Below, piece by piece: positions 6,101-27,439 of a stretch of 36,232 nucleotides of DNA (within the stretch, counting starts at the first letter, position 1; each line of letters begins with the position of its first letter). The stretch spans positions 1 to 36,232 of the forward strand of contig CAZYEQ010000004.1 of assembly GCA_964646505.1 (NCBI GenBank), given 5' to 3'. The translations under genes were made by a program, and so were the position numbers. Source of the stretch: an uncultured Gammaproteobacteria bacterium (GTDB taxonomy: Bacteria; Patescibacteriota; Patescibacteriia; Magasanikbacterales; UBA922). The notes beneath the pieces were generated by a model. It saw nothing but the letters and a program-made list of their open reading frames with translations. It was not told the origin of the DNA and did not search any database.

Positions 6101-6106
6101 CCGTAT

Positions 6107-8893: not shown

Positions 8894-8896
8894 TCT

Positions 8897-9343
8897 ATGT
8901 CGCTCCGCGACCGTATAAAAGATGCACAAGTTACGGCCATGAAAAGTAAGGATCAAGCACGTCTTGCTCCGCTTCGCATGCTTTGGTCAGCGGTACGAAA
9001 TGCTGATATTGATGCTGGTGAACCATTGTTAGACGAGGCGATTATTCCTATTGTCGCAAAACAAGTAAAACAGCTCAAAGACGCGATGGTGGAGTATGAA
9101 AAAGGTGGTCGAAGTGATTTAAAAGAAACGGCCATGGCTGAGCTGGTAGTGCTTGAAGAATTTTTGCCAAAACAAATGAGCGATGAAGATTTAAAAGCAA
9201 AAATACAAACCGTACTCCAAACCATGGATGAAACAAAAGATGTTGGAAAAGTAATGGGAATGGTCATGAAAGAAGTAAAAGGTGAGGCCGACGGCGCACG
9301 GGTCCGTGCGATGGTCACCTCGCTCCTACCTGGTTCAAACTAA
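8897..9343 (+). CDS. yqeY: GatB/YqeY-domain protein (148 aa)
   Basis: MSLRDRIKDAQVTAMKSKDQARLAPLRMLWSAVRNADID... and the C-terminal KDVGKVMGMVMKEVKGEADGARV are typical of the YqeY family. Confidence 0.8.
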   Translation: MSLRDRIKDAQVTAMKSKDQARLAPLRMLWSAVRNADIDAGEPLLDEAIIPIVAKQVKQLKDAMVEYEKGGRSDLKETAMAELVVLEEFLPKQMSDEDLKAKIQTVLQTMDETKDVGKVMGMVMKEVKGEADGARVRAMVTSLLPGSN

Positions 9344-9365: not shown

Positions 9366-9805
9366 ATGCTGCTTCCGGGGTTCACACAACTTATTTCAAA
9401 GTATCCTAAGAAAACTGCGTTTTGCCTCGTTGGCGTATTTGTCGCAGTTTTTTTAGTTTGTGCGTATTTTTTTTCAGTACCGCATGTGTTTGCGCAAGGT
9501 GCCACAGGGCAAGATGTGCTTGGGGTAAACGCGCTTGATCAAAACTTACCACTCGCCGGTACCGATATTCGAATTATCATTTTGCGAGTCATCAACATTT
9601 TTTTGAGCCTGCTTGGTATTTTGACGGTTGGCCTTATTTTGTACGCAGGTGCCAAAATTCTTTTTTCTAATGGAGATGAGCAAGCAGTTGCTGAGGGTCG
9701 GCAAATTATTGTGAACGCGGTTATTGGACTTGCAATTATTATGTCGGCGTGGGGAATTACGCGTTTTATCATTAGCCGTCTTGGGGTGGCTACTGGTTTA
9801 CGTGG
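9366..9805 (+). other. N-terminal pilin-like (TrbC/VirB2-type) module of the 694-aa protein
   Basis: See the CDS entry. About half of roughly 100 aligned positions are identical, by eye, to 11471-11887. Confidence 0.6.
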
Positions 9806-11450
9806 TGCTTCGCTCGTTGACCAAAATACTTCAGGAGATTCATTTTTTGCAAGCGGCGCATTGGGGAGAGCAGTACGAGAACATTATCCATTTCGCAACC
9901 AACGTGATGTGCCGCGCAATTCACGTATTGCCGTTACGTTCCGCGAAGCGATTTATCCCGGAAGCATTGCTGATGACCAAAATGGTAACGGTATTTTTGG
10001 TGACTGTGTTGTGCCACAGGGTGAGGAGTTGAACTGGGCACTGCACTGTGATCACCCTACGACTGTTGTACAGGTTACCGCATCAGGAACAGCCCAGACC
10101 ATTGATATGGCGGCGTTACTTACCTACGCAGCTGACGGTTCTGTACGCAGTGTACTGTTTCGCCCAATCGAACTTCTTGGGTCACCTACAGAGCCAGTGA
10201 CGTATCGTGTATCACTCGGTGAAGGTATTCAGGTGGCAAATCGTTCCGCGAGTATTTTTGCCGGAGAACGTGGTCGCAGATATGACTGGACGTTTGAGAC
10301 AAATACACTCCTTGATGTGACACCGCCAACGGTGCTTAGTGTGTATCCAAACCATAACGCGCGTGTAGCCCGTAACACGATTGCGCAAGTACAGTTTAGC
10401 GAGGCCATGGATCCTACAACGGTACAGGGAGGCACGGGATCTTTTTCACATATTATTTTTGGCGCCACAACCCCTGGGGCGGTCATGCCAAGCGGTGAAT
10501 GGCGTGTCACAAATGCATATCAAACGGCCGAGTTTGTACCAAGTGACGTGTGTGGACAAAACAGTTGTGGCGATCAAATGTATTGTTTGCCAAGTGTATG
10601 TGCTGATGAGACGAATCCGGCATGTGTGAATAATCTCACTGTTCTTGTGCGTACCGCTCAAACAGTGCCAGGGAGTGCCACCTTTGAGGCCGTACCATTT
10701 AGCGGTGTTATGGATATGGCGGGAAACGCCCTTGATACCGGGCCAAGTAATTCGCGCAACGCTCGTGGTGCGCTGCCAGGTGATGGTGTGCTCGCAAATC
10801 CGCATCGCCCTGTTGCGCCGAATGAACTTTTACCAGATAATTTTTGGTGGAGTATACGAGTTATACCCGCCATTGATCGGAGTGTTCCTGTTATTCGCGA
10901 AGTGCGTCCACGAATCGATGAAGAAGGGGTGCGTAGTGACGACCCTCTTACTCTTACATTTACCGGCTCCATGTGGCCAAGCACGCTCGGTGATATTGCT
11001 TTAAATGAGTTTCCTGTGGCGAATGGTGCCGACCGTCCCTGGTCATCCCCCATATCCGAGCTTATTACAGGACCAAACGACACGACATTTACTGAGGTGA
11101 CTGTTCGGCATCGTTCTTTTGGTCCGGGTGGCACTCCATTTTATTACTTTACACAGGTGCCAAGCACGGTGCGTTCCGCGAATCAAAATTGTTTTTACCC
11201 CGGTCGTGGCCCGGTCGCAGATACACCTGGTTTACCTACGATTTGTGACTACGAAGAGGATGCAAATGGACAGATTATTCGAAATACGAATTGTGTCTCT
11301 GTATCTCCTCAAACATCGGTAGATCAAGACACTGGGTGTGTTCAAACAACGCTTCGACAAGAAGCGGGACAAGACTTGCGCGTGCAACCAAATATTCCAG
11401 CCTGCATAACGGTTATGCAGCGCGCCACAGTGAGCCCGGTGCAACCGTAA
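9366..11450 (+). CDS. Secreted/membrane-anchored exoprotein (694 aa): signal peptide, TrbC/VirB2-like two-helix head, SbsA-type Ig-like domains, Cys-rich tail
   Basis: Signal peptide ending VFA-QG. Then TDIRIIILRVINIFLSLLGILTVGLILYAGAKILFSNGDEQAVAEGRQIIVNAVIGLAIIMSAWGITRFI, which forms two TM helices around a short loop. Later PPTVLSVYPNHNARVARNTIAQVQFSEAMDPTTV (SbsA_Ig/Big_5-like). Many Cys residues in the C-terminal third. Confidence 0.85.
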   Translation: MLLPGFTQLISKYPKKTAFCLVGVFVAVFLVCAYFFSVPHVFAQGATGQDVLGVNALDQNLPLAGTDIRIIILRVINIFLSLLGILTVGLILYAGAKILFSNGDEQAVAEGRQIIVNAVIGLAIIMSAWGITRFIISRLGVATGLRGASLVDQNTSGDSFFASGALGRAVREHYPFRNQRDVPRNSRIAVTFREAIYPGSIADDQNGNGIFGDCVVPQGEELNWALHCDHPTTVVQVTASGTAQTIDMAALLTYAADGSVRSVLFRPIELLGSPTEPVTYRVSLGEGIQVANRSASIFAGERGRRYDWTFETNTLLDVTPPTVLSVYPNHNARVARNTIAQVQFSEAMDPTTVQGGTGSFSHIIFGATTPGAVMPSGEWRVTNAYQTAEFVPSDVCGQNSCGDQMYCLPSVCADETNPACVNNLTVLVRTAQTVPGSATFEAVPFSGVMDMAGNALDTGPSNSRNARGALPGDGVLANPHRPVAPNELLPDNFWWSIRVIPAIDRSVPVIREVRPRIDEEGVRSDDPLTLTFTGSMWPSTLGDIALNEFPVANGADRPWSSPISELITGPNDTTFTEVTVRHRSFGPGGTPFYYFTQVPSTVRSANQNCFYPGRGPVADTPGLPTICDYEEDANGQIIRNTNCVSVSPQTSVDQDTGCVQTTLRQEAGQDLRVQPNIPACITVMQRATVSPVQP

Positions 11451-11470
11451 TTATCTTTGCGTTTTCTTGT

Positions 11471-11887
11471 ATGTCACGTATCGCCTTATATATCCGCCGT
11501 CATTTGCTCCATTTTATTTTCTTCTTTTTTTTCCTTTTGGTCGGTGGTTTCGTATTTTATGCTCACCCTACGTTCGCGCAAGGAACAAACGATGTACTCG
11601 GTGTAAATAGTTTTGAGGGCGCGAGCAATTTAGCGAGCACAGATATTCGTGTGATTGTTGCCAGAATTATTAATATTTTTCTTGGCCTTTTATCACTTCT
11701 TGCTGTTGGAATTGTGATTTATGGGGGGGTAACGTGGATGACTGCTGGTGGTGATGAAGGAAAAATTGAAGATGCTCGTAAGATTTTAGTGAATGGTGCT
11801 ATTGGTTTGGTCATTGTTTTGTCCGCGTTTGCCATTAGTCGTTTTGTGTTGAATCGTTTACAGGGCGCAACAGGATTGGCCGGAGGT
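11471..11887 (+). other. N-terminal pilin-like module of the giant protein
   Basis: STDIRVIVARIINIFLGLLSLLAVGIVIYGGVTWMTAGGDEGKIEDARKILVNGAIGLVIVLSAFAISRFVLNRL. Paralogous to 9366-9805. Confidence 0.6.
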
Positions 11888-14800
11888 GATCCGCTTGCGA
11901 GTTGCGCTGATTTGGCTCTTGCAAATGACCCTAGGTATGATGAGTTGTGTGGAAGAAATAGCGGAGGCTCTCTTGATTGTTCTGCTAATCCTTCGTGGTG
12001 CTGCGCACGTGATAACTTTATCGTGCAAAGTATGACGCCGCGAACTGATGGTACGAACATGAATAACGCGACTATACGTGTTGTGTTTAGTCGAGGGTTA
12101 CGAACTGGCGCGAATCAGGTTGTAGAAATATGGCGTAATGGTGTAACGACTACAAATGATTTTTCATTTCGATTTGCAGATCCGGCCAATCAAGTTCTTG
12201 AGGGAGTATATACTGGCACCTCAGCATGTGAAGAAACCCCAGGTTGTTTACCTCAGGGTGAGTATCGGGTGCGAGTGAACGACGGCATACGAGATGTGCG
12301 AGGACAAACTCTTCAAGAATCAGTTTCGTGTGGTACGTTTCCACGAGAAGCCACTTTTGGGGTAAATACCCCAGGCGCTATTGATATTTTTCCCCCTGAT
12401 ATTCCAGGTGGAATTATGATCGACGGGGTGCGTGCAGCCGATGCGCCGATTCCTGTAAATCGTGAAGTGGAAATACGTATACCTGTGACCGACAACACGG
12501 GGGCTGGGTATGTGCGTCTCGATGTTGGTCGTGAAGGACAGAGCACGGCAATCACGGCAGTAGGTGGGCCGTCGGTTGTACGGGGTTCTGACGCGGGGGT
12601 CGTTGATCCGTACGTGTATACATATCGGCTCTTTCTTGCTTCAAACACTCGTTTGGGAGAACGGTATGTGATTTCCGCTCGTGCGTATGATATTGATGGA
12701 AATAATGTAGCGGTATCTGCAACATTCGTGACGGTTGCGCCACACTGCGCGAATGGCATTCAAGATGAGGATGAAACCGATGTTGATGCAGGTCCCTCGT
12801 GTCAAAGTGTGGGCGCCTGTGCAGAAAATTGGCAATGTGTATCAGGTCAATGTGTATCAGGCCAATGTCAGGCCACCCCGATCATTACGAGTGTTGATCC
12901 TTGGGACGGAGCCGCGGGTTCGTGGGTTACGGTAAACGGTCGTTTTTTTGGTACAACTCCAGGGCAGGTGCAATTTGGCGTTGACCGTAATAATGATGGG
13001 GTGATTGCGGGAGCGGAGTGGGCTAATGCGAGCCTGGCTGCGTGTAATGGAATTTCTCCTTGGAGCGACTCTACTGTTATTGCGGAAGTACCTGATGATG
13101 CGGTATTACCACAAACGTCACTTTCAGCTATTCGCGTCGTGCGCGCGGATAATACTGCTTTAACGGATACAACCATTGATGCTCGTGGTCCACGTGGTGG
13201 ACCTCGTAATGGGTTATTTTTGAAAAATACCACCGAACGTCCACGTCTTTGTCGTGTTGAAGTGGGCGCTGGTCAAACGGCTGGTTTGCCTCAGACAGAC
13301 GCGCGTGCTATTGGTGAGTCGCTGCAGGGGGGTACACGTGAGCTTCGTTTTGGTCCGGTGGTAGCGAATATTTTAGGAGGCACTGATACACGTATCGATA
13401 CTCGTGTTCCTGAAGGATTGCGTCCGGGTGTCGTATCGGTAGCTGCCACTATTAACGGGGTGGTAAGTAATGCAGTACCGTTTACCATTCTTTCGCCAAA
13501 TTCAAATGATGTCCCCAATATTTCGGGTATTGATCCGGCTGAAACCACCCCGGGTAGCTATGTGACAATTAGTGGCCGAGGCTTTGACGGACGTTTAGGT
13601 GTGGTGTATCTCGCGAATGCTCTTGACCTGGTGTGTACACCGTCAAATCTACCCGCAGGGTGTGTTGAGGCACGTGCCACACTTCCGCCAGCATGTGGAG
13701 ACACATGGACTCCAACACAGGTCGTTTTTCAGGTACCAACAACCATACAGCCTGGACGATGGTTTGTGAATGTGCGAACCGCTCATGGATTATCAAGTCC
13801 ATTAGTAAATACCGCGGCAGTCACTGTTGTAGCTGGAAACCCACGACCAAGTTTGTGTAATATGTCACCAGAGCGTGGTCCAGCTCCACGCACCATTGCT
13901 GATGGTATTACGCTGCGTGGCGCAAATCTTTCTTCAGCAAGTATCGTGTATTTTTGGACCGCTCGCGCGAATGCAGCTGATGTGTCAACATGGCTTACCG
14001 CCCGCGCTCCCGATGTCCGTTTTACGAGTGCATCCGAATTGTTGAGTGTGATTCCTTCGATAGGTGGAGTTACAATGCAAACAGGTCCTATTCGTGTTTC
14101 TTCAAACGGTCAATTATCAAACAGTTTGACGTACACCGTTCTTGACTGTCGCACTATTCCTGACGAAGAAATTCCTGCAGGTCAACGTTGTTGCAGTGAC
14201 GGTTCACTTCTTGCGACTAATCAAGCCTGCCCAGGAGAAAGCCGCGACGCGGGTTATGTGTGGCGGTTTACGAATGGACAAATTTCCCAGCTCCCCGCCG
14301 TTATTGAAGAATGTGATGTCACAGGTGCTTCGAGTGCCATGCCTTCGCCATCACCAAGTGATATTTGGGGGAGAACGCAAACATGTGTCAATGCGGAAAT
14401 TCGCGCGCGATTTACGACTCCTATGGATGAGTCAACACTCGTAAGTCCAAACGTACGTGTGGTGACGTGTGGTGATGGAGTGTCGCCAGACTGCACGGGC
14501 CGAGTTGATGTGACCGACAGTTTCTTGATTCGTTACGAATCTCAAAGTTTGCGTGTGGCACCGCGCTCTGCCGCCACAGCACTTACAGCGAATACATGGT
14601 ATCGTGTTGAGCTTAGCACAAGTATCCGCTCACAAGAATCTCGGACTATTCTTGGTCGACCGCAAACGGTTTCAAACGCACTACAAGCAACTCGCCCATG
14701 TGGCGCGGGCACGGCTTATTGTTTTACGTTTCAAACAGGCACAAGGCGTTGTGAAATCGCGACCGCGCATATCTTACCACCGGAATACACCACAACTATT

Positions 14801-20800: not shown

Positions 20801-22804
20801 ATATTTCGTACGCCAACAAGTAGACTTGTGCTTACACCCGACAACTACTGTGTGTCACAAACACTGTGTACACAAAATACCCAGTGTGAAAATGGAGATG
20901 CGTGTGTCTTAGATGCGCTTCCGACGTACCATGGGCAACAAGGAGGAAGTTGTTCGTTCGATTGTCAGAATGTTGGTGGGTACTGTGGAGATGGTATTGT
21001 GAATGCAATACACGAAGAGTGTGATGATGGAAACACGAATAATGCTGATTCGTGTACCAATTTGTGTTTTCGACGCACAGCTATTACACCTGTAACTCCA
21101 ACAGGAAGTTACTGTGGTGATGGGGTGGTTCAAACACCAAACAGTCAGGGGGTAAACGAGACGTGTGATAATGGTGTAAATAATGGTGTTGTTCCGCAAA
21201 ATACACCCTATGGTCAACGTATTGTGTACTGTTCCGCGCGCTGCACAGAGGAAACAAGAGACCCAGTGGCGTTTTGTGGGAACGGTATTGTTGAGGGGCC
21301 AGAAGTATGTGACGCCGACCCATCGAGTGGCGCGGTTTTTGGACGCGGTGGAGCCCAACTGGCGTGCGCGGGCGGAAATCTTTCTGTGGCAAATAGAGGG
21401 TCGTATCGCTGTGTGGATAATTGCCGTCGAATTGACAGTACATGTACAGTGTGCGGTGTGGTAGAAGTGTGTAGCGCAAATAGGGCTGAGTGTCTATTGA
21501 ATGGAACAGGAAATCAGTGTCAGGATCATTTATGTGCGAATGGTCTAGGGCAACGCGTGGCGTGCAACCAGGGCCAACAGAGTGATTGTCGGTATGTAGG
21601 CACAACGGATGGTGGTATTTGTAATGATGGTATTGATAATGACGGTGACGGCCTTACGGACTGTGCTGACTTTACAGGTGGTGGCGCAAACCCACAGATT
21701 GCGATTTTAAACCCAATCGTATCGAGGTTACGGACTGGTTCTGAGGCGTGGGGTATCGTAAATGATGTGTCCATGGTTCGTGGTGGTCTCGATGCGCCAT
21801 ATCGTGCTGTGGGTCCATTAAATAATCGACAATATATATATGAAGGAGCAATGGGTGGTCGCCTCCTGGCCGCAACAGCAAATTATTCATTCGGGCTTCC
21901 AGCGACTTCAGTTTTTTCAGTTAATTCCAATCAACTTAATACAAGATTAAACATTAATACAAATCCACAGTGTGTAGATGTGTATAGTTTGGATGTTAAT
22001 CACATGGCCATTCCACAAACGTTGTTACAGCCACCAATCAGCCCAAGAGTTGCGGGTCCAGGCAGTTTATTTCCGTATCCTGTTGATGGTCAGGCCGGTA
22101 CTATGAGCTACGAGTATGTGCTCAGTCCCGCGGTACCGCAAAATGTATTCCGTGTCGTGGTGCGTTGGGGTGAAGATGAGGCACAAGCGCAAGCAGAATT
22201 TTTAGGAAATCTCTACCACAATGACTTTCCTCAGAACGGTGGGCGTATTGTGAATTTGGCTATTGCGCAGGCACGTACGGTGCAAGAGAGTGTTAACTAT
22301 GTTTGTGACAACATTGGTGAACAGCAACTCGCTATCGGTGGTGGGCAAACTGCCAATTATTGGTGGAGCATTGATTGTTCGTCAATAGCAAGTACAGATG
22401 CTAGCGCCCCTGCCGAAGTGTATGTGCATCCAAATTTATCGCTATCAAAAACATTTATTCAATCCATGACGATTGATCTGCGTAATGCAAATTCAATTGC
22501 GCCATTCCAGTTCTTTATTGATGATACTACGCGTCCTATGTATGAGTATCGAAATAATCAGAATTTTACAGTCGAGGTGTATGAATATCATAATGGTCAG
22601 AATCCGCTTCGTTCTGTTTACCTACCACGAGTGTTCCGTATCAGTGGCACTGTTGGAACAAGTTCAAATCCAAACGCGCAATACTGGCATGTATTTAATA
22701 TCGTACGGAATCCGGGAAATGGAAGATATGAGATTCGGGCTCTTGGTCCATCGGGCGATGGGAGTCTTGAGACAGACATTGAAGATATTCACAATAACTT
22801 ATAA
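11471..22804 (+). CDS. Giant multidomain surface protein (3,777 aa) with a TrbC/VirB2-like head
   Basis: One uninterrupted ORF. ATG at 11471 (MSRIALYIRRHLL...) lies 20 nt after the upstream stop. The ORF-track start at 11291 overlaps the previous gene. Signal peptide ends TFA-QG, followed by the two-helix head. Then come SbsA-type Ig-like domains, four IPT/TIG-like domains, 11 CGNG/CGDG...ECD cysteine repeats in three clusters, a Pro-rich linker, a five-blade Asp-box region, a CNDGIDNDGDGLTDC motif, and a motif-free C-terminus of about 370 aa. Confidence 0.9.
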   Translation: MSRIALYIRRHLLHFIFFFFFLLVGGFVFYAHPTFAQGTNDVLGVNSFEGASNLASTDIRVIVARIINIFLGLLSLLAVGIVIYGGVTWMTAGGDEGKIEDARKILVNGAIGLVIVLSAFAISRFVLNRLQGATGLAGGDPLASCADLALANDPRYDELCGRNSGGSLDCSANPSWCCARDNFIVQSMTPRTDGTNMNNATIRVVFSRGLRTGANQVVEIWRNGVTTTNDFSFRFADPANQVLEGVYTGTSACEETPGCLPQGEYRVRVNDGIRDVRGQTLQESVSCGTFPREATFGVNTPGAIDIFPPDIPGGIMIDGVRAADAPIPVNREVEIRIPVTDNTGAGYVRLDVGREGQSTAITAVGGPSVVRGSDAGVVDPYVYTYRLFLASNTRLGERYVISARAYDIDGNNVAVSATFVTVAPHCANGIQDEDETDVDAGPSCQSVGACAENWQCVSGQCVSGQCQATPIITSVDPWDGAAGSWVTVNGRFFGTTPGQVQFGVDRNNDGVIAGAEWANASLAACNGISPWSDSTVIAEVPDDAVLPQTSLSAIRVVRADNTALTDTTIDARGPRGGPRNGLFLKNTTERPRLCRVEVGAGQTAGLPQTDARAIGESLQGGTRELRFGPVVANILGGTDTRIDTRVPEGLRPGVVSVAATINGVVSNAVPFTILSPNSNDVPNISGIDPAETTPGSYVTISGRGFDGRLGVVYLANALDLVCTPSNLPAGCVEARATLPPACGDTWTPTQVVFQVPTTIQPGRWFVNVRTAHGLSSPLVNTAAVTVVAGNPRPSLCNMSPERGPAPRTIADGITLRGANLSSASIVYFWTARANAADVSTWLTARAPDVRFTSASELLSVIPSIGGVTMQTGPIRVSSNGQLSNSLTYTVLDCRTIPDEEIPAGQRCCSDGSLLATNQACPGESRDAGYVWRFTNGQISQLPAVIEECDVTGASSAMPSPSPSDIWGRTQTCVNAEIRARFTTPMDESTLVSPNVRVVTCGDGVSPDCTGRVDVTDSFLIRYESQSLRVAPRSAATALTANTWYRVELSTSIRSQESRTILGRPQTVSNALQATRPCGAGTAYCFTFQTGTRRCEIATAHILPPEYTTTILGVIQDPRFPRTSADPLNPPYPLFYYIWGAPREACTVINADGLGWVWSVPPEDAGYASVIPRRDPPRYTDSRAAVTALSNSVPDTAQIHATVTTPNNTTIQAESTLTVDLGDPRVVGFWPNCSESCTNANIGVQFNQSMLPSTYEGALHVYRCADPLCANRVEEVLTTVVEQDNPLRYQVGAASPLLENTWYLVTVSSQIRAMTALGSTNPGNPLEPFQWRFRTKATAGICVAASVVVEPTSFTATAVGQVTRYLSVPVSPGDQCSPLGQGLNPWTFGWQWSTEDVNVARVSNFSSLGSPRRECTPTCVPRGSSLISGRQSGVSVCGNGTVDAGEDCDIAISSEVPGVSCSLFCLRPGNSSRGTGPNMCGNGVVDTAQGEECDPTGANADTRFCDERCLLIGNTARGNAQNQCGNSAVEPLFGEECESRQGVEEDTSCTQSCVRAGSTVLSASWCELRPVGTDATTLSACATRAVSMCGDGVINRGEVCEIVTGSGTGPGTIRLYGVQNPVAVQDVSVCTSQCLLAHICNETNIPTSAPTLRCASGAPGCTSQCTLRGADVTYETPSLCGDGQDGIGEYGMCEYSPADVTARVPGVRTPIGQNPIQVVTAVGASQNIPADGRQETRVAADIVASLASRLASPVHGTGDYALQCGFVEYPPGAQVADQANNCPQNAGNNDNRYGVGTNSCCQLRPERTSSYPADGTGFQGTASACRNTLVEFETTGELDEATLERNIVIARGYPAGAATVPCRNTGDDVTDAVRDTLAYEEVPRGIIRGTIFRVRHFFRALLEGQAFASALRLDQVNVADWCGGSTRFISDTSYTRDASGVVQSTRVRLQLLDALEANTTYAVLLRGGTTGIKNVRGVSLRPDTTAQNVEASSWVFETGRDICRVNEVVVEPNTFLFTRPNTTAEFVATARTAAGQQVVPIPNIYNWSWAWGPQNNAVFAIPANGTTINTDHMVIGSRTLGQGERVTGFAHLQITQDVLATAGTRLPQFTDTFDLTALFCENPWPRRGIYPYEDAVRRGAVANNDEFDGDWTGGAIPPIAVNGATFYPNIQFGYCADAGRSNDTSDDLPYLRPTVLGDVRNGAIAPFGDSLRRILFFNDRNDDAIGYQVFDNTTRVTPVTPSPAPTPAPALPPLPETVPDGRALRFLGDAAQAGHEFPIGEPIPLLWAGGQNPGRVRISILLLNPAGNAYVTNDQIPNSQVSLLSSIDNDGSEYVTLPLDIAHPSPDSRYEFLIIEDGTSAQGFSARITLRDPAPSVPVPPPSWVPMVTAYRTLTEWYQAKFGAVPSTMRRVTVQGYEALTDGNSYYISGLNQFEERDRNTLGNHVYLFTINPDAQESTKRVFTALINSLRFNINISDVGLCSVGDGSRESDIFTPDAAGVACTVDSDCTTLGEGRICANARTKLLRDWTRLQDVAGVQTAASIVYARDQRFPLLSSGTYIPGYTNSRWPSWGATLSQALGAALPRDPLNSWSGCDGADPQTCWNPDAATGGTFQCPVDASIYEYTVRSDGSNYELHVPFEYFRGETGIVDALLDTDRLTTNRFCVGTPQSPVAGACGNGILNAGEECDPPGTRGTSFTDGNGQQCQQGQLASTRCGDTCRLEVGQCQPTGRCGNGVIEGNERCDDGSANGQYGHCATDCNGLSGAYCGDGQINTNAAGAALERCDKAEAQFQSGFCDKQSCKDARFDIQPESTNGVTGIMAGTDSVSVRGNRLWLVTTISQTPSSPMRSHIYSGAVGQQYTRVFDGPNLNLYAVSFANQNVGLAAGGLRNGPNTDGAVVRTVNGGVDWQTIQVRGASTLTSVAMVSDQIAFVLDDQGLIFRSTDGGATWSNSIQSIGIAGRKIQFFDAQFGWAVGTGRLFITRDGGNTWTQANVPGGIVPYDVVFANRYIGYVTSDQGTSIARTDDGGNTWEVFATPSLRQGSLSARGKIAIVDQQTVVLWAGATYPGNVIGYALLTTNNGGQTWSEISTANNQIGGGGPIVRADTAVVAIFRTPTSRLVLTPDNYCVSQTLCTQNTQCENGDACVLDALPTYHGQQGGSCSFDCQNVGGYCGDGIVNAIHEECDDGNTNNADSCTNLCFRRTAITPVTPTGSYCGDGVVQTPNSQGVNETCDNGVNNGVVPQNTPYGQRIVYCSARCTEETRDPVAFCGNGIVEGPEVCDADPSSGAVFGRGGAQLACAGGNLSVANRGSYRCVDNCRRIDSTCTVCGVVEVCSANRAECLLNGTGNQCQDHLCANGLGQRVACNQGQQSDCRYVGTTDGGICNDGIDNDGDGLTDCADFTGGGANPQIAILNPIVSRLRTGSEAWGIVNDVSMVRGGLDAPYRAVGPLNNRQYIYEGAMGGRLLAATANYSFGLPATSVFSVNSNQLNTRLNINTNPQCVDVYSLDVNHMAIPQTLLQPPISPRVAGPGSLFPYPVDGQAGTMSYEYVLSPAVPQNVFRVVVRWGEDEAQAQAEFLGNLYHNDFPQNGGRIVNLAIAQARTVQESVNYVCDNIGEQQLAIGGGQTANYWWSIDCSSIASTDASAPAEVYVHPNLSLSKTFIQSMTIDLRNANSIAPFQFFIDDTTRPMYEYRNNQNFTVEVYEYHNGQNPLRSVYLPRVFRISGTVGTSSNPNAQYWHVFNIVRNPGNGRYEIRALGPSGDGSLETDIEDIHNNL
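12871..14145 (+). repeat. Four tandem IPT/TIG-like Ig-fold domains (protein-level repeats)
   Basis: Repeat starts are ITSVDPWDGAAGSWVTVNGRFFG, LCRVEVGAGQ..., ISGIDPAETTPGSYVTISGRGFDG and LCNMSPERGPAPRTIADGITLRGANL. Each unit ends in a ...SN(A/S)(V/L)(P/T)(F/Y)T(I/V)L-type strand. Confidence 0.6.
15770..16555 (+). repeat. Cysteine-rich repeat cluster 1 (5 units of C-G-(N/D)-(G/S)-x(5-10)-E-C-(D/E))
   Basis: CGNGTVDAGEDCD, CGNGVVDTAQGEECD, CGNSAVEPLFGEECE, CGDGVINRGEVCE, CGDGQDGIGEYGMCE. These resemble the Myxococcus cysteine-rich repeat (DUF4215-type). Confidence 0.65.
19490..19870 (+). repeat. Cysteine-rich repeat cluster 2 (3 units)
   Basis: CGNGILNAGEECD, CGNGVIEGNERCDDGSANGQYGHC, CGDGQINTNAAGAALERCD. 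Confidence 0.65.
20170..20730 (+). repeat. Five BNR/Asp-box-like repeats (probable beta-propeller)
   Basis: TVNGGVDWQT, STDGGATWSN, TRDGGNTWTQ, TDDGGNTWEV and TNNGGQTWSE, spaced roughly 40-60 aa apart. Confidence 0.65.
20980..21330 (+). repeat. Cysteine-rich repeat cluster 3 (3 units)
   Basis: CGDGIVNAIHEECDDGNTNNADSC, CGDGVVQTPNSQGVNETCDNGVNNG, CGNGIVEGPEVCD. Confidence 0.65.
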
Positions 22805-22848
22805 AGAGGAAGTTGGTGAAGGTGGCTTCTTAGTATATAATAGGTCAT

Positions 22849-23256
22849 ATGCAAAAAAGCTGGGTTCGCATTGTGCTTGGAGTGATCACGATAACTCTTA
22901 TCGGTGGGGGACTGTTTTTTATCACGCAACAGCCACAAAAAAAAACGTCAGAAATACTCCCATCGTCTACATCAACTTCGACGGAGGAGCGGCCTAATCC
23001 TGAGCCAATGCCAAATCCAAACCCTTTTCCAGGTGATGATGATAGGGATGGACTCACGAATGCAGAAGAAACGCAGCTGGGTACCAATCCACACAACTTC
23101 GATACTGACAATGATTCACTGTCTGACGTTACTGAAGTACAAGTGATTCACACTGATCCAAAAAAAGCAGATACCGACGGTGATGGGTTTCACGACGGCA
23201 TAGAAGTTCTCCATGGGTATAATCCTTTAGGAAAGGGAACGTTATCTAAACCTTAG
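22849..23256 (+). CDS. Small N-terminally anchored protein with TSP type-3-like calcium-binding repeats (135 aa)
   Basis: TM helix WVRIVLGVITITLIGGGLFFI and a Pro/Asn-rich linker. Then DDDRDGLTNAEE...DTDNDSLSDVTE...DTDGDGFHDGIEVLHGYNPLGKG. Confidence 0.75.
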   Translation: MQKSWVRIVLGVITITLIGGGLFFITQQPQKKTSEILPSSTSTSTEERPNPEPMPNPNPFPGDDDRDGLTNAEETQLGTNPHNFDTDNDSLSDVTEVQVIHTDPKKADTDGDGFHDGIEVLHGYNPLGKGTLSKP

Positions 23257-23267
23257 ATATATTGCGT

Positions 23268-24101
23268 ATGTTCGATAATCAACTTACCGGAACAACAGGA
23301 AAAGGTCAGGCACCCAGCAACTTACCTATGGGTGAGCCCGAAGATATGTTTTCTTCCGTTACTGGTGACGAGGTGGGTGGTTCAGAAGAACAACCTTCGG
23401 CACTCGAGGCGGGGGTTTTGAAACCAAAGTCCCAGCCTATACCAGCACAAGCGGATGCGCACACAGACAATACGGAGCCAGTAGACTCTTCTGATTTTGA
23501 AGTCATGGCAAAAGTGCCACGTGAACAGGTGCGTCGTGTTGTTCCCTCGCCAGCCGCTGCTGCTCCTGCCGCATACCCTGAGTATCGTATTCAAGAGCCA
23601 TCTATCATTAAAAGCGTCTTTTTGGTTATTCTGGTTATTTTGGTTGTTGCGGGTGTTGGTTTCGGCGGGTGGTGGGCATATGGTGCTTATATCGCACCTC
23701 GCCTCGATAATTCAGGCGCAGCACCAATATCTTCCTCCGAAGAGACCAATAATCTCCCTTCGCCTACGGTTTCTCCTTCGTCTGAGCTAACTGAAGATAT
23801 TGATCATGATAGTAATCCGGCCGATGACGCAATTTTATTTGGCTCCGTGCCCGATACAGACGGTGATGGCCTCGATGATCTGAAAGAGAAAGAATTGGGA
23901 ATAGATCCTACCCGCTTCGATACCGATGGTGACGGACTTTCTGATTATGACGAAGTGGTATCGTGGAAAAGTGATCCACAAAATCCTGACACGGACGGTG
24001 ATGGGTATACGGATGAAGAAGAGATTAAAAATGGGTATAGCCCGACAGGTCCAGGTCGTATTTTTGAGCCACCAACACCGTCGCCCGCGATAAGTCCATA
24101 G
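23268..24101 (+). CDS. Bitopic membrane protein with TSP type-3-like repeats (277 aa from ATG 23268; a TTG at 23262 is also possible)
   Basis: Acidic/Pro-rich N-terminal region of about 115 aa. TM helix VFLVILVILVVAGVGFGGWWAYGAY. Then DTDGDGLDDLKE...DTDGDGLSDYDE...DTDGDGYTDEEEIKNGYSPTGPG. Confidence 0.75.
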   Translation: MFDNQLTGTTGKGQAPSNLPMGEPEDMFSSVTGDEVGGSEEQPSALEAGVLKPKSQPIPAQADAHTDNTEPVDSSDFEVMAKVPREQVRRVVPSPAAAAPAAYPEYRIQEPSIIKSVFLVILVILVVAGVGFGGWWAYGAYIAPRLDNSGAAPISSSEETNNLPSPTVSPSSELTEDIDHDSNPADDAILFGSVPDTDGDGLDDLKEKELGIDPTRFDTDGDGLSDYDEVVSWKSDPQNPDTDGDGYTDEEEIKNGYSPTGPGRIFEPPTPSPAISP

Positions 24102-24113
24102 TACATATTTTGT

Positions 24114-25325
24114 ATGGCCTTTAGGTTATTCAAAAAAAATTCAAAAGAAAGACCGCCTGAGGCTCCTGTGTTAGCAAGGGTAACAGTCATTCCTGATTCG
24201 TTTTACGGCGGAGCAAATCCAGTCGTGTATGCACATGAAGCACCGTCACACGCTGACCATTCTTCGGTGGCGCCAAAAATGATTCCTGTGGGTCAGGTAA
24301 CCCCGCCGACTCCGCAAAAACCAGTAGTGTCGCGCCGTGCTGACATGAAAGCGGCTATGGACACCACAGAAGACAAAAAAAACGATCAGGAATCAAAACA
24401 GCGTGAGAGCGACATGCTTGATATTCCTAAAGAAGGCACGTCTCGTCCGGTATTTATGTGGGCTGGAGTTGGCATCACACTCATTGTTTTAGTTGGTATT
24501 TCATATTGGTATGTGACACGTTCACTCCAAACGACCAACCGGCCGCTCTCACCACTACCACCAAGTTTTGAAGCGATACCGCAGCCGCAAATACGTCCGG
24601 TCGAGCCACCACCGGCACAAGTTGTGGCGCAAGTGCCGACTACTTCTATTTCTGAAGTGCCCACCTCTACGCGCCAAACATTACCTACTTTGTCACCGCT
24701 TAGTCTTTTGCCGGACGATGCAGATATTGACAATGACGGGCTTACGGATACCGAAGAAGATGTGCTTCAAACCGACAGTGGCACCTGGGATACAGACGGA
24801 GACGGATATTATGACGGTCAAGAAGTCATGAACCTCTATAATCCAACCGGCTTCGCGCCAGTAAAAATTATTGACTCAGGTCGTGTGCTCGAGTATACGC
24901 AGCCGCTTCATTCGTGGAAGATCTATTACCCAACTCCATGGGATGTTGGCACGGTAGAAGACTCTGTTCCCCATGTTCTGTTTAGCGCGGTAACAGGTGA
25001 TTATATTGAGGTTATTGAGTCAGAAAAACTCCCTGGTGAGACATTTGAATTGTGGTTTGCTCGTGTGTTGCAAAATCAACGGTTCAGCGATCTTCTCAAA
25101 AAAACCAATCGTTTCATGATTCCGTACTATATTCGACAAGATGGGCTAGTTGGGTATGTGGAAGACATGAATCGGGTGTATGTTGTGGCGTATCATCAAG
25201 GATCCGCAAATGTTGTGTTGTATCGTCATATTTTTGATATGATGATGCAAAGTTTTCGCCTTGGGGGGTCGGCTATTTCCACTCCGGATCAACCTCGCAT
25301 ACCAGTCACGCCAAGTGCGACATAA
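24114..25325 (+). CDS. Bitopic membrane protein with TSP type-3-like repeats and a C-terminal globular domain of about 150 aa (403 aa)
   Basis: TM helix VFMWAGVGITLIVLVGISYWYV and a Pro-rich linker. Then DIDNDGLTDTEED...DTDGDGYYDGQEVMNLYNPTGFAP, followed by an unassigned domain (LEYTQPLHSWKIYYPTPWDV...MMQSFRLGG). Confidence 0.75.
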   Translation: MAFRLFKKNSKERPPEAPVLARVTVIPDSFYGGANPVVYAHEAPSHADHSSVAPKMIPVGQVTPPTPQKPVVSRRADMKAAMDTTEDKKNDQESKQRESDMLDIPKEGTSRPVFMWAGVGITLIVLVGISYWYVTRSLQTTNRPLSPLPPSFEAIPQPQIRPVEPPPAQVVAQVPTTSISEVPTSTRQTLPTLSPLSLLPDDADIDNDGLTDTEEDVLQTDSGTWDTDGDGYYDGQEVMNLYNPTGFAPVKIIDSGRVLEYTQPLHSWKIYYPTPWDVGTVEDSVPHVLFSAVTGDYIEVIESEKLPGETFELWFARVLQNQRFSDLLKKTNRFMIPYYIRQDGLVGYVEDMNRVYVVAYHQGSANVVLYRHIFDMMMQSFRLGGSAISTPDQPRIPVTPSAT

Positions 25326-25327: not shown

Positions 25328-25762
25328 ATGGGCCACGCGACGATATATCGCACCGTTAAGCATTGCGCATGTTCTGACACGTTTATTGTCAAAGTGGTGG
25401 GTCGTGTCCTCGCTCATCTTGGCCAGACCGAAAGTACTGTGAGTGTGCACGTGATTGGCGATAAGCGCATGACCACTCTTAACCAACGTCATCGTCGTAT
25501 GCGGGGCACGACTGACGTATTATCGTTTCCAACACAAGATGCTCCTGATGGGTTTTTTTCTTCAGATGATCGCGGTGATATTTTTATCTCCTACCCTCAA
25601 ATTGTTCGACAGGCAAAAACGCATCAGATTTCAATAAAAGAAGAGTTCACGCGCATGCTTGTGCATGGAGTGCTTCATGTGTTTGGGTATGACCATGGAA
25701 CCAAAAAAGAACAAGAAAAAATGTACCCCTTGCAAGAGATGCTTGTAAAGAAAAGTATATGA
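25328..25762 (+). CDS. ybeY: rRNA maturation endoribonuclease YbeY (144 aa)
   Basis: Zinc-binding motif HGVLHVFGYDH plus TDVLSFP. The stop overlaps the dgkA start (ATGA). Confidence 0.9.
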   Translation: MGHATIYRTVKHCACSDTFIVKVVGRVLAHLGQTESTVSVHVIGDKRMTTLNQRHRRMRGTTDVLSFPTQDAPDGFFSSDDRGDIFISYPQIVRQAKTHQISIKEEFTRMLVHGVLHVFGYDHGTKKEQEKMYPLQEMLVKKSI

Positions 25763-26130
25763 TGTCGTTTCTTTCTTCCTTTTTTCGAAGTGTATCTCAT
25801 GCCTGTCGAGGTTTTTCTTACGCGTGGCGTGCCGAACAAAATATTCGTATCCACATTGTGGCGGCTGGTGTGATAAGCGTTTTGGGGTATGTGTGTGGTC
25901 TTAATCGCGTAGAGTGGGCTTTGGTGTTTTTTGCGATTGGTTTTGTACTGTTCGCGGAACTCTGCAATAGTGCTCTTGAGGCTCTTATTGACATGGCAAT
26001 TCCACGGGTGTCTCCAGGAGTAAAACATATAAAAGATATGGTGGCGGCTGGTGTGCTCGTGTCGGCTTTCACCGCGTTATGCATCGCTGGAGCAGTGTTT
26101 ACCCCGCATCTTTTTATCTTGTTTAGGTAG
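25759..26130 (+). CDS. dgkA: Prokaryotic diacylglycerol/undecaprenol kinase family protein (123 aa)
   Basis: Three-TM protein with a RSVSHACRGFSYAWRAEQNIRIH amphipathic start, AELCNSALEALID and KDMVAAGVLVSA. The ybeY-dgkA pairing is common in bacteria. Confidence 0.8.
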   Translation: MMSFLSSFFRSVSHACRGFSYAWRAEQNIRIHIVAAGVISVLGYVCGLNRVEWALVFFAIGFVLFAELCNSALEALIDMAIPRVSPGVKHIKDMVAAGVLVSAFTALCIAGAVFTPHLFILFR

Positions 26131-26163
26131 GGTATTGTCGTGTATACTTTACCAATGTAACCT

Positions 26164-27417: not shown

Positions 27418-27439
27418 CCATGTTTGGCGTCCAAAATGT

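What the first reader, a model, noticed from the sequence alone, without database searches (positions are those of the whole stretch)
9366..25325. Enzyme-free five-gene surface module: two exoproteins with pilin-like heads, then three membrane-anchored TSP3 calcium-repeat proteins
Five consecutive co-directional genes span 16 kb, or 44% of the window, and encode only predicted envelope or extracellular proteins. There is no recognisable enzyme, transporter or secretion ATPase among them. The first two share a signal peptide ending FA-QG and a TrbC/VirB2-like two-helix head. The next three share a TM anchor, a Pro-rich stalk, DxDxDG repeats and a closing Y-(N/S)-P-x-G motif. The giant protein itself carries a CNDGIDNDGDGLTDC motif of the same calcium-binding type. 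This suggests a calcium-dependent assembly between the giant protein and the small anchors. That arrangement would suit a cell-surface attachment apparatus in an episymbiotic, reduced-genome bacterium. I know of no described system with this composition.
Basis: partly seen in the sequence, partly recalled or inferred. Interest (0 to 1): 0.85.

Follow-up and report, generated by a model that had tools for sequence, protein, structure and literature searches.

The report
Pilin-anchored giant surface protein operon
A 16-kb, five-gene block found in every Magasanikbacteria genome examined encodes two exported proteins (one 3,777 residues long) held by a conjugative-pilin-like helical hairpin, plus three small calcium-repeat membrane proteins; it is most likely a cell-surface fibre or attachment apparatus of these tiny bacteria, but its function is untested.

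Summary
Window 9366-25325 holds five tightly spaced + strand genes. Two (694 and 3,777 aa) are exported proteins whose paralogous N-terminal heads score above Pfam's cut-off for T4SS_pilin (PF18895, VirB2/TrbC-like). Three are bitopic membrane proteins with TSP3 calcium repeats. No enzyme family or fold was detected. The giant ORF is not a misassembly. The order giant-g3-g4-g5-ybeY-dgkA-ftsA-ftsZ recurs in about 70 species-level genomes of Candidatus Magasanikbacteria. The g1-giant pair follows lepB-hisS-yqeY in all five genomes checked. Giant relatives form 565 clusters, with a median length of 3,771 aa among the full-length ones listed.

New details:
- The hairpin is the most conserved part of g1.
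- The giant has a conserved stalk, a variable ligand-type cassette and a conserved tip.
- g5 ends in a PsbP-like domain.
- g4 and g5 carry conserved cytoplasmic motifs.

Best reading: a constitutive surface-fibre or adhesin apparatus anchored by VirB2-type hairpins, in effect "modular VirB2 pilins". I found no paper describing it. The link between the pilin-headed pair and the TSP3 trio rests only on adjacency within one clade. It is a new variant of known kinds. Interest 0.6.

The parts
9366..11450 (+). g1: 694-aa exported protein. Signal peptide aa 1-43 (cleavage FA|QG), VirB2/TrbC-like helical hairpin aa ~65-145, then a rod of Ig-like beta-sandwich domains aa ~166-694 with 14 Cys.
   Evidence: Pfam T4SS_pilin 34.2 bits and Big_5. 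AF2 mean pLDDT 86, with helices 68-99 and 105-143 followed by all-beta domains. Foldseek matches protocadherin EC, LdtMt2 BIg and titin Ig, with no enzyme fold. Family of 236 proteins of ~650-760 aa.
9558..9800 (+). g1 pilin-like hairpin (aa 65-145), the most conserved part of the protein.
   Evidence: Mean pairwise identity is 59.9% in the hairpin against 38-50% in the ectodomain across 70 orthologues. Invariant G95, G103, G121, I124 and I131.
11471..22804 (+). g2: 3,777-aa giant exported protein. Signal peptide (FA|QG after aa 36), VirB2-like hairpin, then Ig-like (Big_5, TIG) domains, Cys-rich repeats (128 Cys), a conserved mid domain, a variable cassette and a conserved tip.
   Evidence: Collinear with orthologues at ~32% identity. 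Family of 565 clusters at E<=1e-30; 115 of the best 150 are >=3,000 aa, and 114 of those 115 carry the N-terminal head.
11633..11875 (+). g2 pilin-like hairpin (aa ~55-135).
   Evidence: PF18895 30.7 bits on the whole protein and 34.4 bits on a segment, aa 59-125. 50% identical to the g1 head.
18644..19783 (+). Giant conserved mid domain (aa 2392-2771). It has no Pfam or PDB relative and many invariant Cys and Trp.
   Evidence: 37% identity to the orthologue from OZ246405.1. Alignment A2. Nothing in the PDB profile search. Only DUF4215 repeats recur in Pfam. Present in 115 of 115 full-length representatives.
20138..20770 (+). BNR/Ycf48-like beta-propeller (aa ~2890-3100), part of the variable cassette (aa ~2800-3500).
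   Evidence: PSII_BNR, Sortilin-Vps10 and BNR hits. PDB Ycf48 at E 1.6e-08. This region does not align with orthologues, which carry VWA, Laminin_G_3, TIG or Fib_succ_major instead.
21620..21664 (+). CNDGIDNDGDGLTDC motif (aa 3384-3398), an acidic double-disulfide-type repeat that is not a conserved feature of the family.
   Evidence: NF033662 at 24.7 bits against a cut-off of 41. Conserved in 1 of 47 loci. Any DxDxDGxxD in 7 of 40 and 12 of 115 orthologues.
22052..22801 (+). Giant conserved C-terminal tip domain (aa 3528-3777), with no Pfam or PDB relative.
   Evidence: 31-34% identity to orthologues. Alignment A3. No PDB or Pfam hit. Present in 99 of 115 full-length representatives and C-terminal in 79.
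22849..23256 (+). g3: 135-aa bitopic membrane protein. Short N-terminus, TM aa ~4-27, Pro-rich stalk, three TSP3 calcium repeats, ends GYNPLGKG.
   Evidence: TSP3_bac 60.4 bits. TM and repeats. Family consensus. Found in 65 loci at median 49% identity.
23268..24101 (+). g4: 277-aa bitopic membrane protein. Cytoplasmic N-terminus with conserved MFDD...P-x-NLP-x-GEPEDIF...SAL-x-AG-x-L-x-PK motifs, one TM, acidic/Pro-rich stalk, three TSP3 repeats, ends GYSPTGPG.
   Evidence: TSP3_bac 51.2 bits. Start and motifs from a 53-sequence alignment. TM aa 108-139.
24114..25325 (+). g5: 403-aa bitopic membrane protein. Cytoplasmic N-terminus with invariant IPDxFYGGxxP motif (aa 26-36), TM helix aa 111-142, Pro-rich stalk, two TSP3 repeats (aa 204-240) and a PsbP/Mog1-like alpha/beta domain (aa ~250-400).
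   Evidence: Family of 211 proteins. Invariant columns. AF2 pLDDT >90 over aa 190-400. Foldseek matches CyanoP 2xb3/2lnj at E ~1e-4 and TM 0.53-0.55.
8645..9343 (+). Upstream housekeeping genes rpsU-like and yqeY, 22 nt from g1. Together with lepB and hisS they form the constant left flank.
   Evidence: A promoter-like site lies at 8569-8597, but it is a pattern match only and sites are not enriched over shuffles.
25328..28924 (+). Constant right flank ybeY-dgkA-ftsA-ftsZ. ybeY starts 2 nt after g5.
   Evidence: A terminator-like hairpin lies at 27440-27457 after ftsA, a pattern match only.

Best explanation
The five genes encode a constitutive cell-surface fibre or attachment apparatus specific to Candidatus Magasanikbacteria.

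Shown:
- g1 and g2 carry Sec-type signal peptides with an FA|QG cleavage site, followed by a VirB2/TrbC-type two-helix hairpin.
- Everything C-terminal of the hairpin is beta-rich and disulfide-rich with no detectable enzyme. In g1 this is a ~530-aa string of Ig-like domains. In the giant it is ~3,600 aa of Ig-like domains and Cys repeats, a conserved mid domain, a species-variable cassette (a BNR propeller here; VWA, Laminin-G, TIG or Fib_succ_major in orthologues) and a conserved tip.
- g3-g5 each have one TM helix, a Pro-rich stalk and TSP3 repeats with invariant acidic residues. g5 adds a PsbP-like domain. g4 and g5 have conserved cytoplasmic motifs.

Inferred:
1. After cleavage by signal peptidase I, the hairpin sits in the membrane with both ends outside, as in VirB2. 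The ectodomains therefore project from the cell.
2. The hairpin is the most constrained part of g1, so it probably makes specific helix-helix contacts. These could be with the partner head, with other pilins or with a T4SS assembly platform.
3. The giant works like a fibrillar adhesin: anchor, long extender, exchangeable ligand-binding cassette, tip.
4. g3-g5 form a calcium-stiffened basal or wall-spanning platform next to the fibres, and the tails of g4 and g5 couple it to a cytoplasmic partner.
5. Expression is constitutive, because the genes are embedded in the rpsU-yqeY...ybeY-dgkA-ftsA housekeeping block.
For: - Domain calls above curated cut-offs.
- Head paralogy at 50% identity, E 9e-28.
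- High-confidence models of g1 and g5, with fold matches to Ig-like strings and PsbP and no enzyme fold.
- The hairpin has 60% mean identity against 38-50% for the ectodomain. g1 and g2 heads are as similar to each other (46%) as orthologues are (49-54%).
- The giant is collinear with orthologues except for aa ~2800-3500. Orthologues carry alternative binding-type domains.
- The architecture head + mid + tip holds in 114, 115 and 99 of 115 full-length representatives.
- Invariant TSP3 acidic residues and cytoplasmic motifs.
- The gene order is kept in about 70 species-level genomes and on the g1 side in 5 of 5 genomes. DNA outside lepB...ftsZ/nrdR differs between genomes.
- Gaps of 2-44 nt between genes.
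- Published context: VirB2-like pilins are widespread and essential in a cultured Patescibacterium (PMC12102498, PMC10633639, PMC12857230). Very large surface proteins with adhesion domains are a recurrent Patescibacteria trait (PMC13059738).
Against: - There are no expression, localisation or binding data.
- Adjacency of the pilin-headed pair and the TSP3 trio is seen only within one clade whose whole neighbourhood is syntenic, so it is one evolutionary observation and not independent support for a functional link.
- No T4SS machinery gene lies within ~9-11 kb in the window or within 10 kb in related loci.
- The head has no detectable sequence relative among solved pilins.
- The module proteins evolve no faster than neighbouring housekeeping genes such as DagK, which is not what one expects of a host-range determinant, apart from the swapped cassette.
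- About 1,500 residues of the giant have no assigned fold, so an enzymatic domain cannot be excluded.
Confidence: 0.5

Rival explanations
1. g1 and g2 are modular minor pilins of a type IV secretion (conjugative-type) pilus. A T4SS encoded elsewhere extracts the hairpins from the membrane and polymerises them, so the Ig-like rod and the giant adhesin are displayed on the pilus or at its tip. This would be analogous to modular type IV pilins such as PilB. In this reading g3-g5 are accessory or unrelated.
For: - Both heads pass Pfam's PF18895 cut-off, and some orthologues also hit TrbC PF04956.
- The hairpin is under stronger constraint than a plain anchor would need.
- Magasanikbacteria genomes that carry the module, GW2011_GWC2_37_14 and GWA2_56_11, are listed as VirB4-positive (Table S1 of PMC12102498; loci L026 and L031).
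- Tandem VirB2-like arrays are known in Patescibacteria.
- From my own knowledge, untested here: in solved F- and T-pilus structures both pilin termini face the pilus exterior, so a C-terminal fusion could be displayed.
Against: - No virB4, virB6 or coupling-protein gene is near the module in any locus examined.
- A ~3,600-aa extension on a helical pilus subunit is sterically extreme.
- No short stand-alone pilin gene occurs in 1.4 Mb of related loci.
- Pilus formation by any Patescibacterial VirB2-like protein is still only proposed (PMC12857230).
Confidence: 0.2
2. The module is a structural envelope layer rather than an adhesin. g1, and perhaps the giant, would form an S-layer-like lattice or wall-spanning scaffold of Ig-like (SbsA-type Big_5) domains. 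The hairpins tether it to the membrane, and the TSP3 proteins organise it with calcium.
For: - Big_5 is the Ig-like domain type found in S-layer proteins (my knowledge). g1 is a compact, well-conserved Ig-like rod.
- Universal, single-copy, housekeeping-embedded conservation at moderate, DagK-like rates fits a core structural role.
- TSP3 repeats occur on a cell-wall enzyme (YkuD) in another Patescibacterium, which points to the wall compartment.
- From my own knowledge: calcium-triggered S-layer assembly is known for SbsB, and cryo-ET of groundwater ultra-small bacteria showed a surface layer.
Against: - A 3,777-aa protein with a species-variable binding-type cassette (BNR, VWA, Laminin-G) is atypical for a lattice subunit.
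- No SLH or other wall-binding domain was found.
- There are no abundance data.
Confidence: 0.15
3. There are two unrelated units that are only neighbours. g1-g2 would be surface proteins. g3-g5 would be wall- or divisome-associated bitopic proteins tied functionally to the downstream ybeY-dgkA-ftsA-ftsZ genes, with cytoplasmic tails that contact FtsA/FtsZ-type proteins.
For: - The whole block lepB...ftsZ is syntenic in the clade, so adjacency alone does not prove coupling.
- g4 and g5 have conserved cytoplasmic linear motifs, and g5 ends 2 nt before ybeY.
- Three bitopic proteins upstream of ftsA-ftsZ loosely recall FtsL/FtsB/FtsQ (my knowledge).
- Weak FtsN hit for g3, E 0.003 against a cut-off far above that score.
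Against: - The g5 motif IPDSFY is not the FtsZ C-terminal peptide of this organism, which reads EIPAFIRKK.
- No coiled coil or POTRA domain is present.
- ybeY and dgkA separate the trio from ftsA.
- The FtsN hit lies in the TM region only.
Confidence: 0.15

Closest known systems
VirB2/TrbC-type T4SS pilins, including the VirB2-like pilin arrays of Patescibacteria (PF18895/PF04956; PMC12102498, PMC10633639)
   Same: Both have a cleavable signal peptide followed by two hydrophobic helices with a short loop. The HMM score is above Pfam's cut-off. Paralogues sit in tandem, and the host phylum is the same.
   Different: Known pilins are small proteins of roughly 70-130 aa (my knowledge) and often lie near virB4. 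Here the hairpin carries ~530-aa and ~3,600-aa ectodomains. The genes sit in a housekeeping block with no T4SS gene within ~10 kb and are always followed by three TSP3 membrane-protein genes.
Modular type IV pilins, e.g. PilB of Streptococcus sanguinis (PMC8179133)
   Same: The design principle is shared: a small pilin 'carrier' module fused to a bulky functional module (vWA, lectin-like) for display.
   Different: The pilin superfamily is different. Type IV pilins have a class III signal peptide, and no G|FTLxE site is present here. The assembly machinery differs, and the extension here is up to about ten times larger.
Fibrillar RTX adhesins of Gram-negative bacteria (LapA, SiiE, MpIBP type)
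   Same: Both are megadalton-scale, with a cell-proximal anchor, a long extender of Ig-like domains and exchangeable ligand-binding domains near the distal end. Calcium is implicated in the system.
   Different: There are no RTX nonapeptides (GGxGxD: none), no T1SS signal or transporter and no outer membrane. Export is by a Sec signal peptide, the anchor is a VirB2-like hairpin, and rigidity probably comes from disulfides (128 Cys) rather than calcium.
Bacterial TSP3-repeat proteins (PF18884; e.g. TSP3-OmpA linkers, Myxococcus CglD/MtsD)
   Same: They share DxDxDGxxDxxE calcium-binding repeats, and g3-g5 give partial hits to CglD and MtsD through these repeats.
   Different: g3-g5 are short N-in bitopic proteins with only 2-3 repeats and no OmpA, VWA or lipoprotein parts. 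Their scores are far below the equivalog cut-offs (17-29 bits against 400-800).
PsbP/CyanoP/Mog1-fold proteins
   Same: The g5 C-terminal domain has this alpha/beta sandwich fold (Foldseek probability 1.0, TM 0.53-0.55). One orthologue is named 'PsbP-related' by NCBI.
   Different: Sequence identity is 12-15%, there is no photosystem context, and the domain is fused to a TM anchor and TSP3 repeats.

Membership tests
T4SS_pilin / TrbC-VirB2 (PF18895, PF04956) | Profile-HMM score at or above the curated gathering threshold | tested here: met
   g1 scores 34.2 bits and g2 30.7 bits against a cut-off of 26.6. TrbC itself is only E 0.14 in the window, but several g1 orthologues carry precomputed PF04956 hits. 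The NCBIfam ICE pilin-like model is below its cut-off (25-27 bits against 40).
T4SS_pilin / TrbC-VirB2 (PF18895, PF04956) | Cleavable N-terminal signal peptide followed by a two-helix hydrophobic hairpin | tested here: met
   FA|QG site and hydropathy. The AF2 model has helices 68-99 and 105-143 with a 5-residue loop.
T4SS_pilin / TrbC-VirB2 (PF18895, PF04956) | Small stand-alone protein (mature pilin of roughly 70-130 aa) | tested here: not met
   The proteins are 694 and 3,777 aa. Orthologues are 650-760 aa and 3,052-5,289 aa.
T4SS_pilin / TrbC-VirB2 (PF18895, PF04956) | Encoded with T4SS machinery (virB4, virB6, etc.) | tested here: not met
   No such gene lies in the window or within 10 kb in related loci. 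VirB4 exists elsewhere in at least two module-bearing genomes.
T4SS_pilin / TrbC-VirB2 (PF18895, PF04956) | Polymerises into an extracellular pilus | not testable with these tools
   This needs cryo-EM/ET or biochemistry.
Bacterial TSP3 repeat proteins (PF18884) | Repeats matching TSP3_bac above threshold, with a conserved DxDxDGxxDxxE calcium-ligand pattern | tested here: met
   g3 scores 60.4 and g4 51.2 bits. g5 scores 24.7 bits, just under the cut-off of 25, but D204, D206, D208, E214, E215, D226, D228, D230 and D234 are invariant in 40 g5 orthologues.
Myxococcus CglD / MtsD equivalogs (NF033765, NF047639) | Full-length equivalog score | tested here: not met
   Scores are 17-29 bits against cut-offs of 400 and 800, and only the TSP3 stretch matches.
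PsbP/Mog1-like fold (g5 C-terminus) | Structural match to PsbP-family structures | tested here: met
   Foldseek matches 2xb3, 2lnj and 9gnw_P at E 1e-4, probability 1.0 and TMt 0.43-0.55 on a model with pLDDT >90. No sequence-family hit.
RTX fibrillar adhesins | RTX GGxGxD repeats and a C-terminal T1SS signal | tested here: not met
   No GGxGxD in any of the five proteins, and no RTX family in Pfam or NCBIfam.
Gram-positive sortase-anchored adhesins | C-terminal LPXTG sorting signal with a TM segment | tested here: not met
   No C-terminal LPxTG was found. The only LPxxG is LPLAG at g1 aa 61, in the head.
Type IV (class III signal peptide) modular pilins | Prepilin peptidase site G|F/M-T-L-x-E at the N-terminus | tested here: not met
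   No such motif in the first 80 residues of any of the five proteins.
S-layer proteins | Wall-anchoring SLH or equivalent domain, and lattice self-assembly | tested here: inconclusive
   No SLH or wall-binding family was found. Big_5 Ig-like domains are present. Self-assembly is not testable here.

The most novel reading that the evidence does not exclude
Magasanikbacteria have turned the conjugative (VirB2-type) pilin hairpin into a carrier for megadalton ectodomains, making these the first 'modular VirB2 pilins'. Together with a dedicated trio of calcium-binding bitopic proteins that reach into the cytoplasm, they would build a previously undescribed, lineage-defining surface organelle. The organelle would be used for contact with host or partner cells and would be co-expressed with the division genes.
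Probability: 0.3. Interest if true: 0.8.

Novelty: new variant of a known kind. Interest (0 to 1): 0.6.

Why it matters
Patescibacteria make up a large share of bacterial diversity, yet how most of them contact other cells is unknown outside the cultured Saccharibacteria. Genomes with this module for which sizes were seen are about 1.1-1.25 Mb. In such a genome this block takes up about 1.3% of the DNA, and it is kept in every examined member of a phylum-rank lineage (NCBI taxonomy), so it is very probably important to the cell. It gives a concrete, conserved set of targets for metaproteomics, cryo-ET and antibody or FISH-based host identification: the hairpin, the conserved tip, the PsbP-like domain and the cytoplasmic motifs. 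If the hairpins do polymerise, the known repertoire of T4SS pilins would extend to cargo-bearing subunits. If they do not, this shows that a pilin fold has been reused as a membrane anchor.

Tried and rejected
1. **Misassembly of the giant ORF: rejected.** Orthologues of 3,052-5,289 aa are collinear from the N-terminus, including one in a 1.23-Mb chromosome.
2. **Calcium bridge through the giant's CNDGIDNDGDGLTDC: rejected as a general mechanism.** The motif is conserved in 1 of 47 loci, and any DxDxDGxxD is present in 7 of 40 and 12 of 115 orthologues.
3. **Hidden enzymes: none found.**
   - Pfam scan on ten overlapping giant segments at E<=1.
   - Per-member Pfam scans of the mid and tip alignments.
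   - PDB profile searches of mid, tip and head.
   - Structure searches of g1 and g5.
4. **Phage or defence origin: rejected.** PHROGs gives one TSP3-type hit for g3 and PADLOC gives none.
5. **RTX, LPXTG, prepilin and lipoprotein signals: absent**.
6. **g5 motif as a mimic of the FtsZ C-terminal peptide: not supported.** IPDSFY differs from EIPAFIRKK.
7. **Pseudopilin resemblance of the mid domain.** A remembered resemblance to the pseudopilin 'LPxDP...YxY...YxLxxxLE' pattern found no support in Pfam or PDB searches.
9. **Promoter and terminator scan.** It gave plausible unit boundaries, but site counts were not above shuffles.
10. **Literature searches.** Searches for PF18895, T4SS_pilin, Magasanikbacteria+pilin, giant proteins+VirB2 and TSP3+CPR found no description of this module.

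Full report
**1. What is there**

The window is a piece of a Patescibacteria (CPR) chromosome. Almost all genes are on the + strand, and GC content is about 43-53% in 1-kb windows.

Between yqeY (8897-9343) and ybeY (25328-25762) lie five co-directional genes:
- g1: 9366-11450, 694 aa.
- g2: 11471-22804, 3,777 aa.
- g3: 22849-23256, 135 aa.
- g4: 23268-24101, 277 aa.
- g5: 24114-25325, 403 aa.

Gaps between them are 20, 44, 11 and 12 nt. g5 ends 2 nt before ybeY.

Two starts were corrected.
- The mechanical giant ORF begins at TTG 11291 inside g1. The ATG at 11471 is the real start, because the closest cluster representative is also 3,777 aa and aligns from residue 7.
- g4 starts at ATG 23268, because 53 orthologues begin MFDD.

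The flanks are ordinary housekeeping genes:
- Upstream: ClpP, a DHH protein, SMC, S16, a KH protein, tRNA-Val, tRNA-Ile, LepB, HisRS, an S21-like protein and YqeY.
- Downstream: YbeY, DagK, FtsA, FtsZ, NrdR, pyruvate kinase, PPDK and a GH1 glycosidase.

No T4SS ATPase, VirB6, coupling protein, transporter or sortase gene is in the window.

**2. Check of the observation**

- g1 and g2 pass Pfam's gathering threshold for T4SS_pilin (34.2 and 30.7 bits against 26.6), and both have Big_5 Ig-like domains.
- The heads are 50% identical over 107 residues (E 9e-28) and share the FA|QG signal-peptidase site.
- A segment-wise scan maps the giant as follows:
  - head at aa 59-125;
  - Big_5 at about 184-284, 967-1062, 1223-1334 and 1930-1997;
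  - TIG at about 680-770;
  - Cys-rich DUF4215/myxo-type repeats;
  - a BNR/Ycf48-like propeller at about 2890-3100;
  - the acidic motif CNDGIDNDGDGLTDC at 3384-3398.
- g3, g4 and g5 each have one TM segment, a Pro-rich stalk, three, three and two DxDxDG repeats, and the closing Y-(N/S)-P-x-G.
- Nothing enzymatic appears in Pfam, NCBIfam, PHROGs or PADLOC.

**3. Conservation**

g5 and g1 each define a family of about 210-240 proteins at 90% clustering. Where named, these are labelled Candidatus Magasanikbacteria.

Gene-context look-ups at 35-48% g5 identity all show the same order: giant (3,660-3,891 aa, T4SS_pilin head) - TSP3 protein (130-159 aa) - TSP3 protein (274-340 aa) - g5 homologue - YbeY - DagK - FtsA - FtsZ.

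A scan of one genome per GTDB species returned 72 loci. Searching their ORFs with the window proteins shows that order in essentially every locus the contig allows.

On the other side, LepB-HisS-(S21)-YqeY-g1-giant is found in all five genomes checked. Sequence beyond LepB and beyond FtsZ/NrdR differs between genomes. Rearrangements have therefore happened around this block but not inside it.

An exhaustive HMMER search with the first 1,200 residues of the giant finds 565 clusters (50% identity) at E<=1e-30. Of the best 150:
- 115 are at least 3,000 aa long (median 3,771, maximum 5,289);
- 114 of those 115 have the N-terminal head;
- 115 of 115 have the mid domain;
- 99 of 115 have the tip domain.

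The giant gene is thus real and lineage-wide.

**4.

(a) **g1 structure.** g1 folds with high confidence (mean pLDDT 86). It has a signal helix, a helical hairpin (68-99 and 105-143), a short linker and an all-beta string of Ig-like domains. The best structural matches are protocadherin EC repeats, the bacterial Ig-like domains of LdtMt2, and titin. No enzyme fold is matched.

(b) **Hairpin conservation.** The hairpin is the most conserved part of g1: 60% mean pairwise identity against 38-50% in the ectodomain. g1 and g2 heads resemble each other (46%) about as much as orthologous heads do (49-54%). A plain membrane anchor would not need that, so the hairpin probably makes specific contacts.

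(c) **Giant architecture.** The giant aligns collinearly with distant orthologues over aa 41-2206, 2392-2771 and 3528-3776. It does not align over about 2800-3500. In that region, or inserted nearby, orthologues carry VWA, Laminin_G_3, TIG or Fib_succ_major instead of the BNR propeller. The conserved mid and tip domains have no Pfam or PDB relatives. Cysteine makes up about 3.5% of residues throughout the family.

(d) **g5 structure.** g5 has a confident PsbP/Mog1-like C-terminal domain. Its cytoplasmic N-terminus carries an invariant IPDxFYGGxxP motif.

(e) **g4 motifs.** g4 has conserved cytoplasmic motifs MFDD...PxNLPxGEPEDIF...SALxAGxLxPK. g3 has no cytoplasmic region.

Any DxDxDGxxD is rare in giants (7 of 40 and 12 of 115).

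**5. Most likely mechanism**

What is shown:
- Sec-type signal peptides.
- A VirB2-like hairpin.
- Beta-rich, disulfide-rich C-terminal regions with no detectable enzyme.
- An anchor-extender-variable cassette-tip layout of the giant.
- Bitopic TSP3 proteins with invariant calcium ligands.

What is inferred:
- The hairpin inserts with both ends outside, as VirB2 does, so the ectodomains project from the cell.
- The giant acts as a fibrillar adhesin whose cassette sets ligand specificity.
- g1 is a shorter companion rod.
- g3-g5 form a calcium-stiffened basal or wall-spanning platform, and the tails of g4 and g5 contact a cytoplasmic partner.
- The unit is constitutively expressed with rpsU...ftsA. 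A promoter-like site lies at 8569-8597 and a terminator-like hairpin at 27440-27457, but these are pattern matches not enriched over shuffles.

I give this about 0.5.

The main open step is whether the hairpins stay in the membrane or are polymerised by a T4SS encoded elsewhere. Two module-bearing genomes are VirB4-positive in Table S1 of PMC12102498. No T4SS gene is nearby in any locus, and no short pilin gene occurs in 1.4 Mb of related loci.

**6. Caveat on coupling**

g1 and g2 are clearly related to each other, and g3, g4 and g5 are related to each other. The link between the two groups rests on adjacency and tight spacing. Because the whole lepB...ftsZ block is syntenic across the clade, this is a single evolutionary observation. 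Only one very divergent locus (L079, where the giant is split into two ORFs) adds to it, and it has the same flanks.

Rival readings therefore keep real weight:
- an S-layer-like envelope scaffold;
- T4SS-pilus modular pilins;
- two unrelated units, with g3-g5 tied to the division genes.

The module proteins evolve at rates similar to DagK and YbeY (median identity to the window 30-49%, against 52-63% for FtsA and FtsZ). That fits a core structural role as well as it fits an adhesin.

**7. Comparison with what is known**

VirB2-like pilins and tandem pilin arrays are described in Patescibacteria, and in one cultured species the array is essential (PMC12102498, PMC12857230, PMC10633639). PF18895 is the dominant domain of freshwater-specific protein clusters. 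Those papers do not mention fusion to large ectodomains, giant proteins or TSP3 partners.

The concept of 'modular pilins' is established for type IV pilins, for example PilB (PMC8179133). The five proteins here lack the class III signal peptide of that family. Very large surface proteins with adhesion domains are a known Patescibacteria theme (PMC13059738). The layout resembles RTX fibrillar adhesins, but no RTX repeats are present.

The finding is therefore a new variant of known kinds rather than a categorically new system. It combines a VirB2-type hairpin used as carrier or anchor for Ig-rod and megaprotein ectodomains with a fixed partnership of three TSP3 bitopic proteins.

**8. Limits**

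- Two of the three homologue searches were lost, so no alignment-based model of any giant segment could be made.
- About 1,500 residues of the giant remain without an assigned fold.
- Complex prediction, whole-genome T4SS inventories and a phylum-wide neighbourhood test could not be run.
- There is no expression or localisation evidence of any kind.

**9. Verdict**

- Observation: confirmed.
- Interpretation: partly supported.
- Novelty: new variant of a known kind.
- Interest: 0.6. The module is a strongly conserved, very costly and undescribed surface system in an uncultured lineage, and it offers clear experimental handles, but its function is still inferred.

Noticed in passing
window 6027-6102 and 6107-6181 (+): tRNA-Val(GAC) and tRNA-Ile(GAU) lie in tandem between the KH-domain gene and lepB.
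   Followed up: no
L080 9914-10669 (Patescibacteria group bacterium STC_49): A 251-aa protein in a Patescibacterium outside this clade fuses three TSP3 repeats to a YkuD L,D-transpeptidase domain. This suggests TSP3 repeats work in the cell-wall compartment in this phylum.
   Followed up: partly
P0090 (g5 homologue, 607 aa): One g5 family member carries cupredoxin domains (PF00127, PF13473), a variant of the family's architecture.
   Followed up: no
L079 76-6465 and 6469-9612: In the most divergent locus (titled Candidatus Paceibacteria DAL-Ass_45_73C1R) the giant is split into two ORFs. The first TSP3 protein there has seven repeats, and the flanks are unchanged.
   Followed up: partly
L009, L010, L012, L017 and many other loci: Many species-representative assemblies titled 'uncultured Gammaproteobacteria' (CAY.../CAZ... 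records and chromosome OZ246405.1) carry the Magasanikbacteria module and its flanks. Their titles look wrong.
   Followed up: no
window 29464-29781 (+); also L001 15313-15609 and L002 15622-15951: A conserved 98-109-aa ORF with no Pfam family sits directly after nrdR.
   Followed up: no
window, the 20 nt upstream of each gene from yqeY to ftsZ: No Shine-Dalgarno-like purine tract is visible before any of these genes.
   Followed up: no
window 1975-2273: The listed SMC ORF (TTG 1975) overlaps the 5' end of the minus-strand DHH/DHHA1 gene (930-2273) by about 300 nt, so the true SMC start is probably further downstream.
   Followed up: no
window 18644-19783 (giant aa 2392-2771): The mid-domain consensus '...LPxDPxNxW...TCWN...YEY...YxLHxPLEYF' reminded me of the globular-domain pattern of pseudopilins (memory only). 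Pfam and PDB profile searches gave no support.
   Followed up: partly
L060 213-9407: One orthologous giant ORF with a head spans only 3,065 codons stop-to-stop, so the 'giant' can be about 20% shorter in some species.
   Followed up: no
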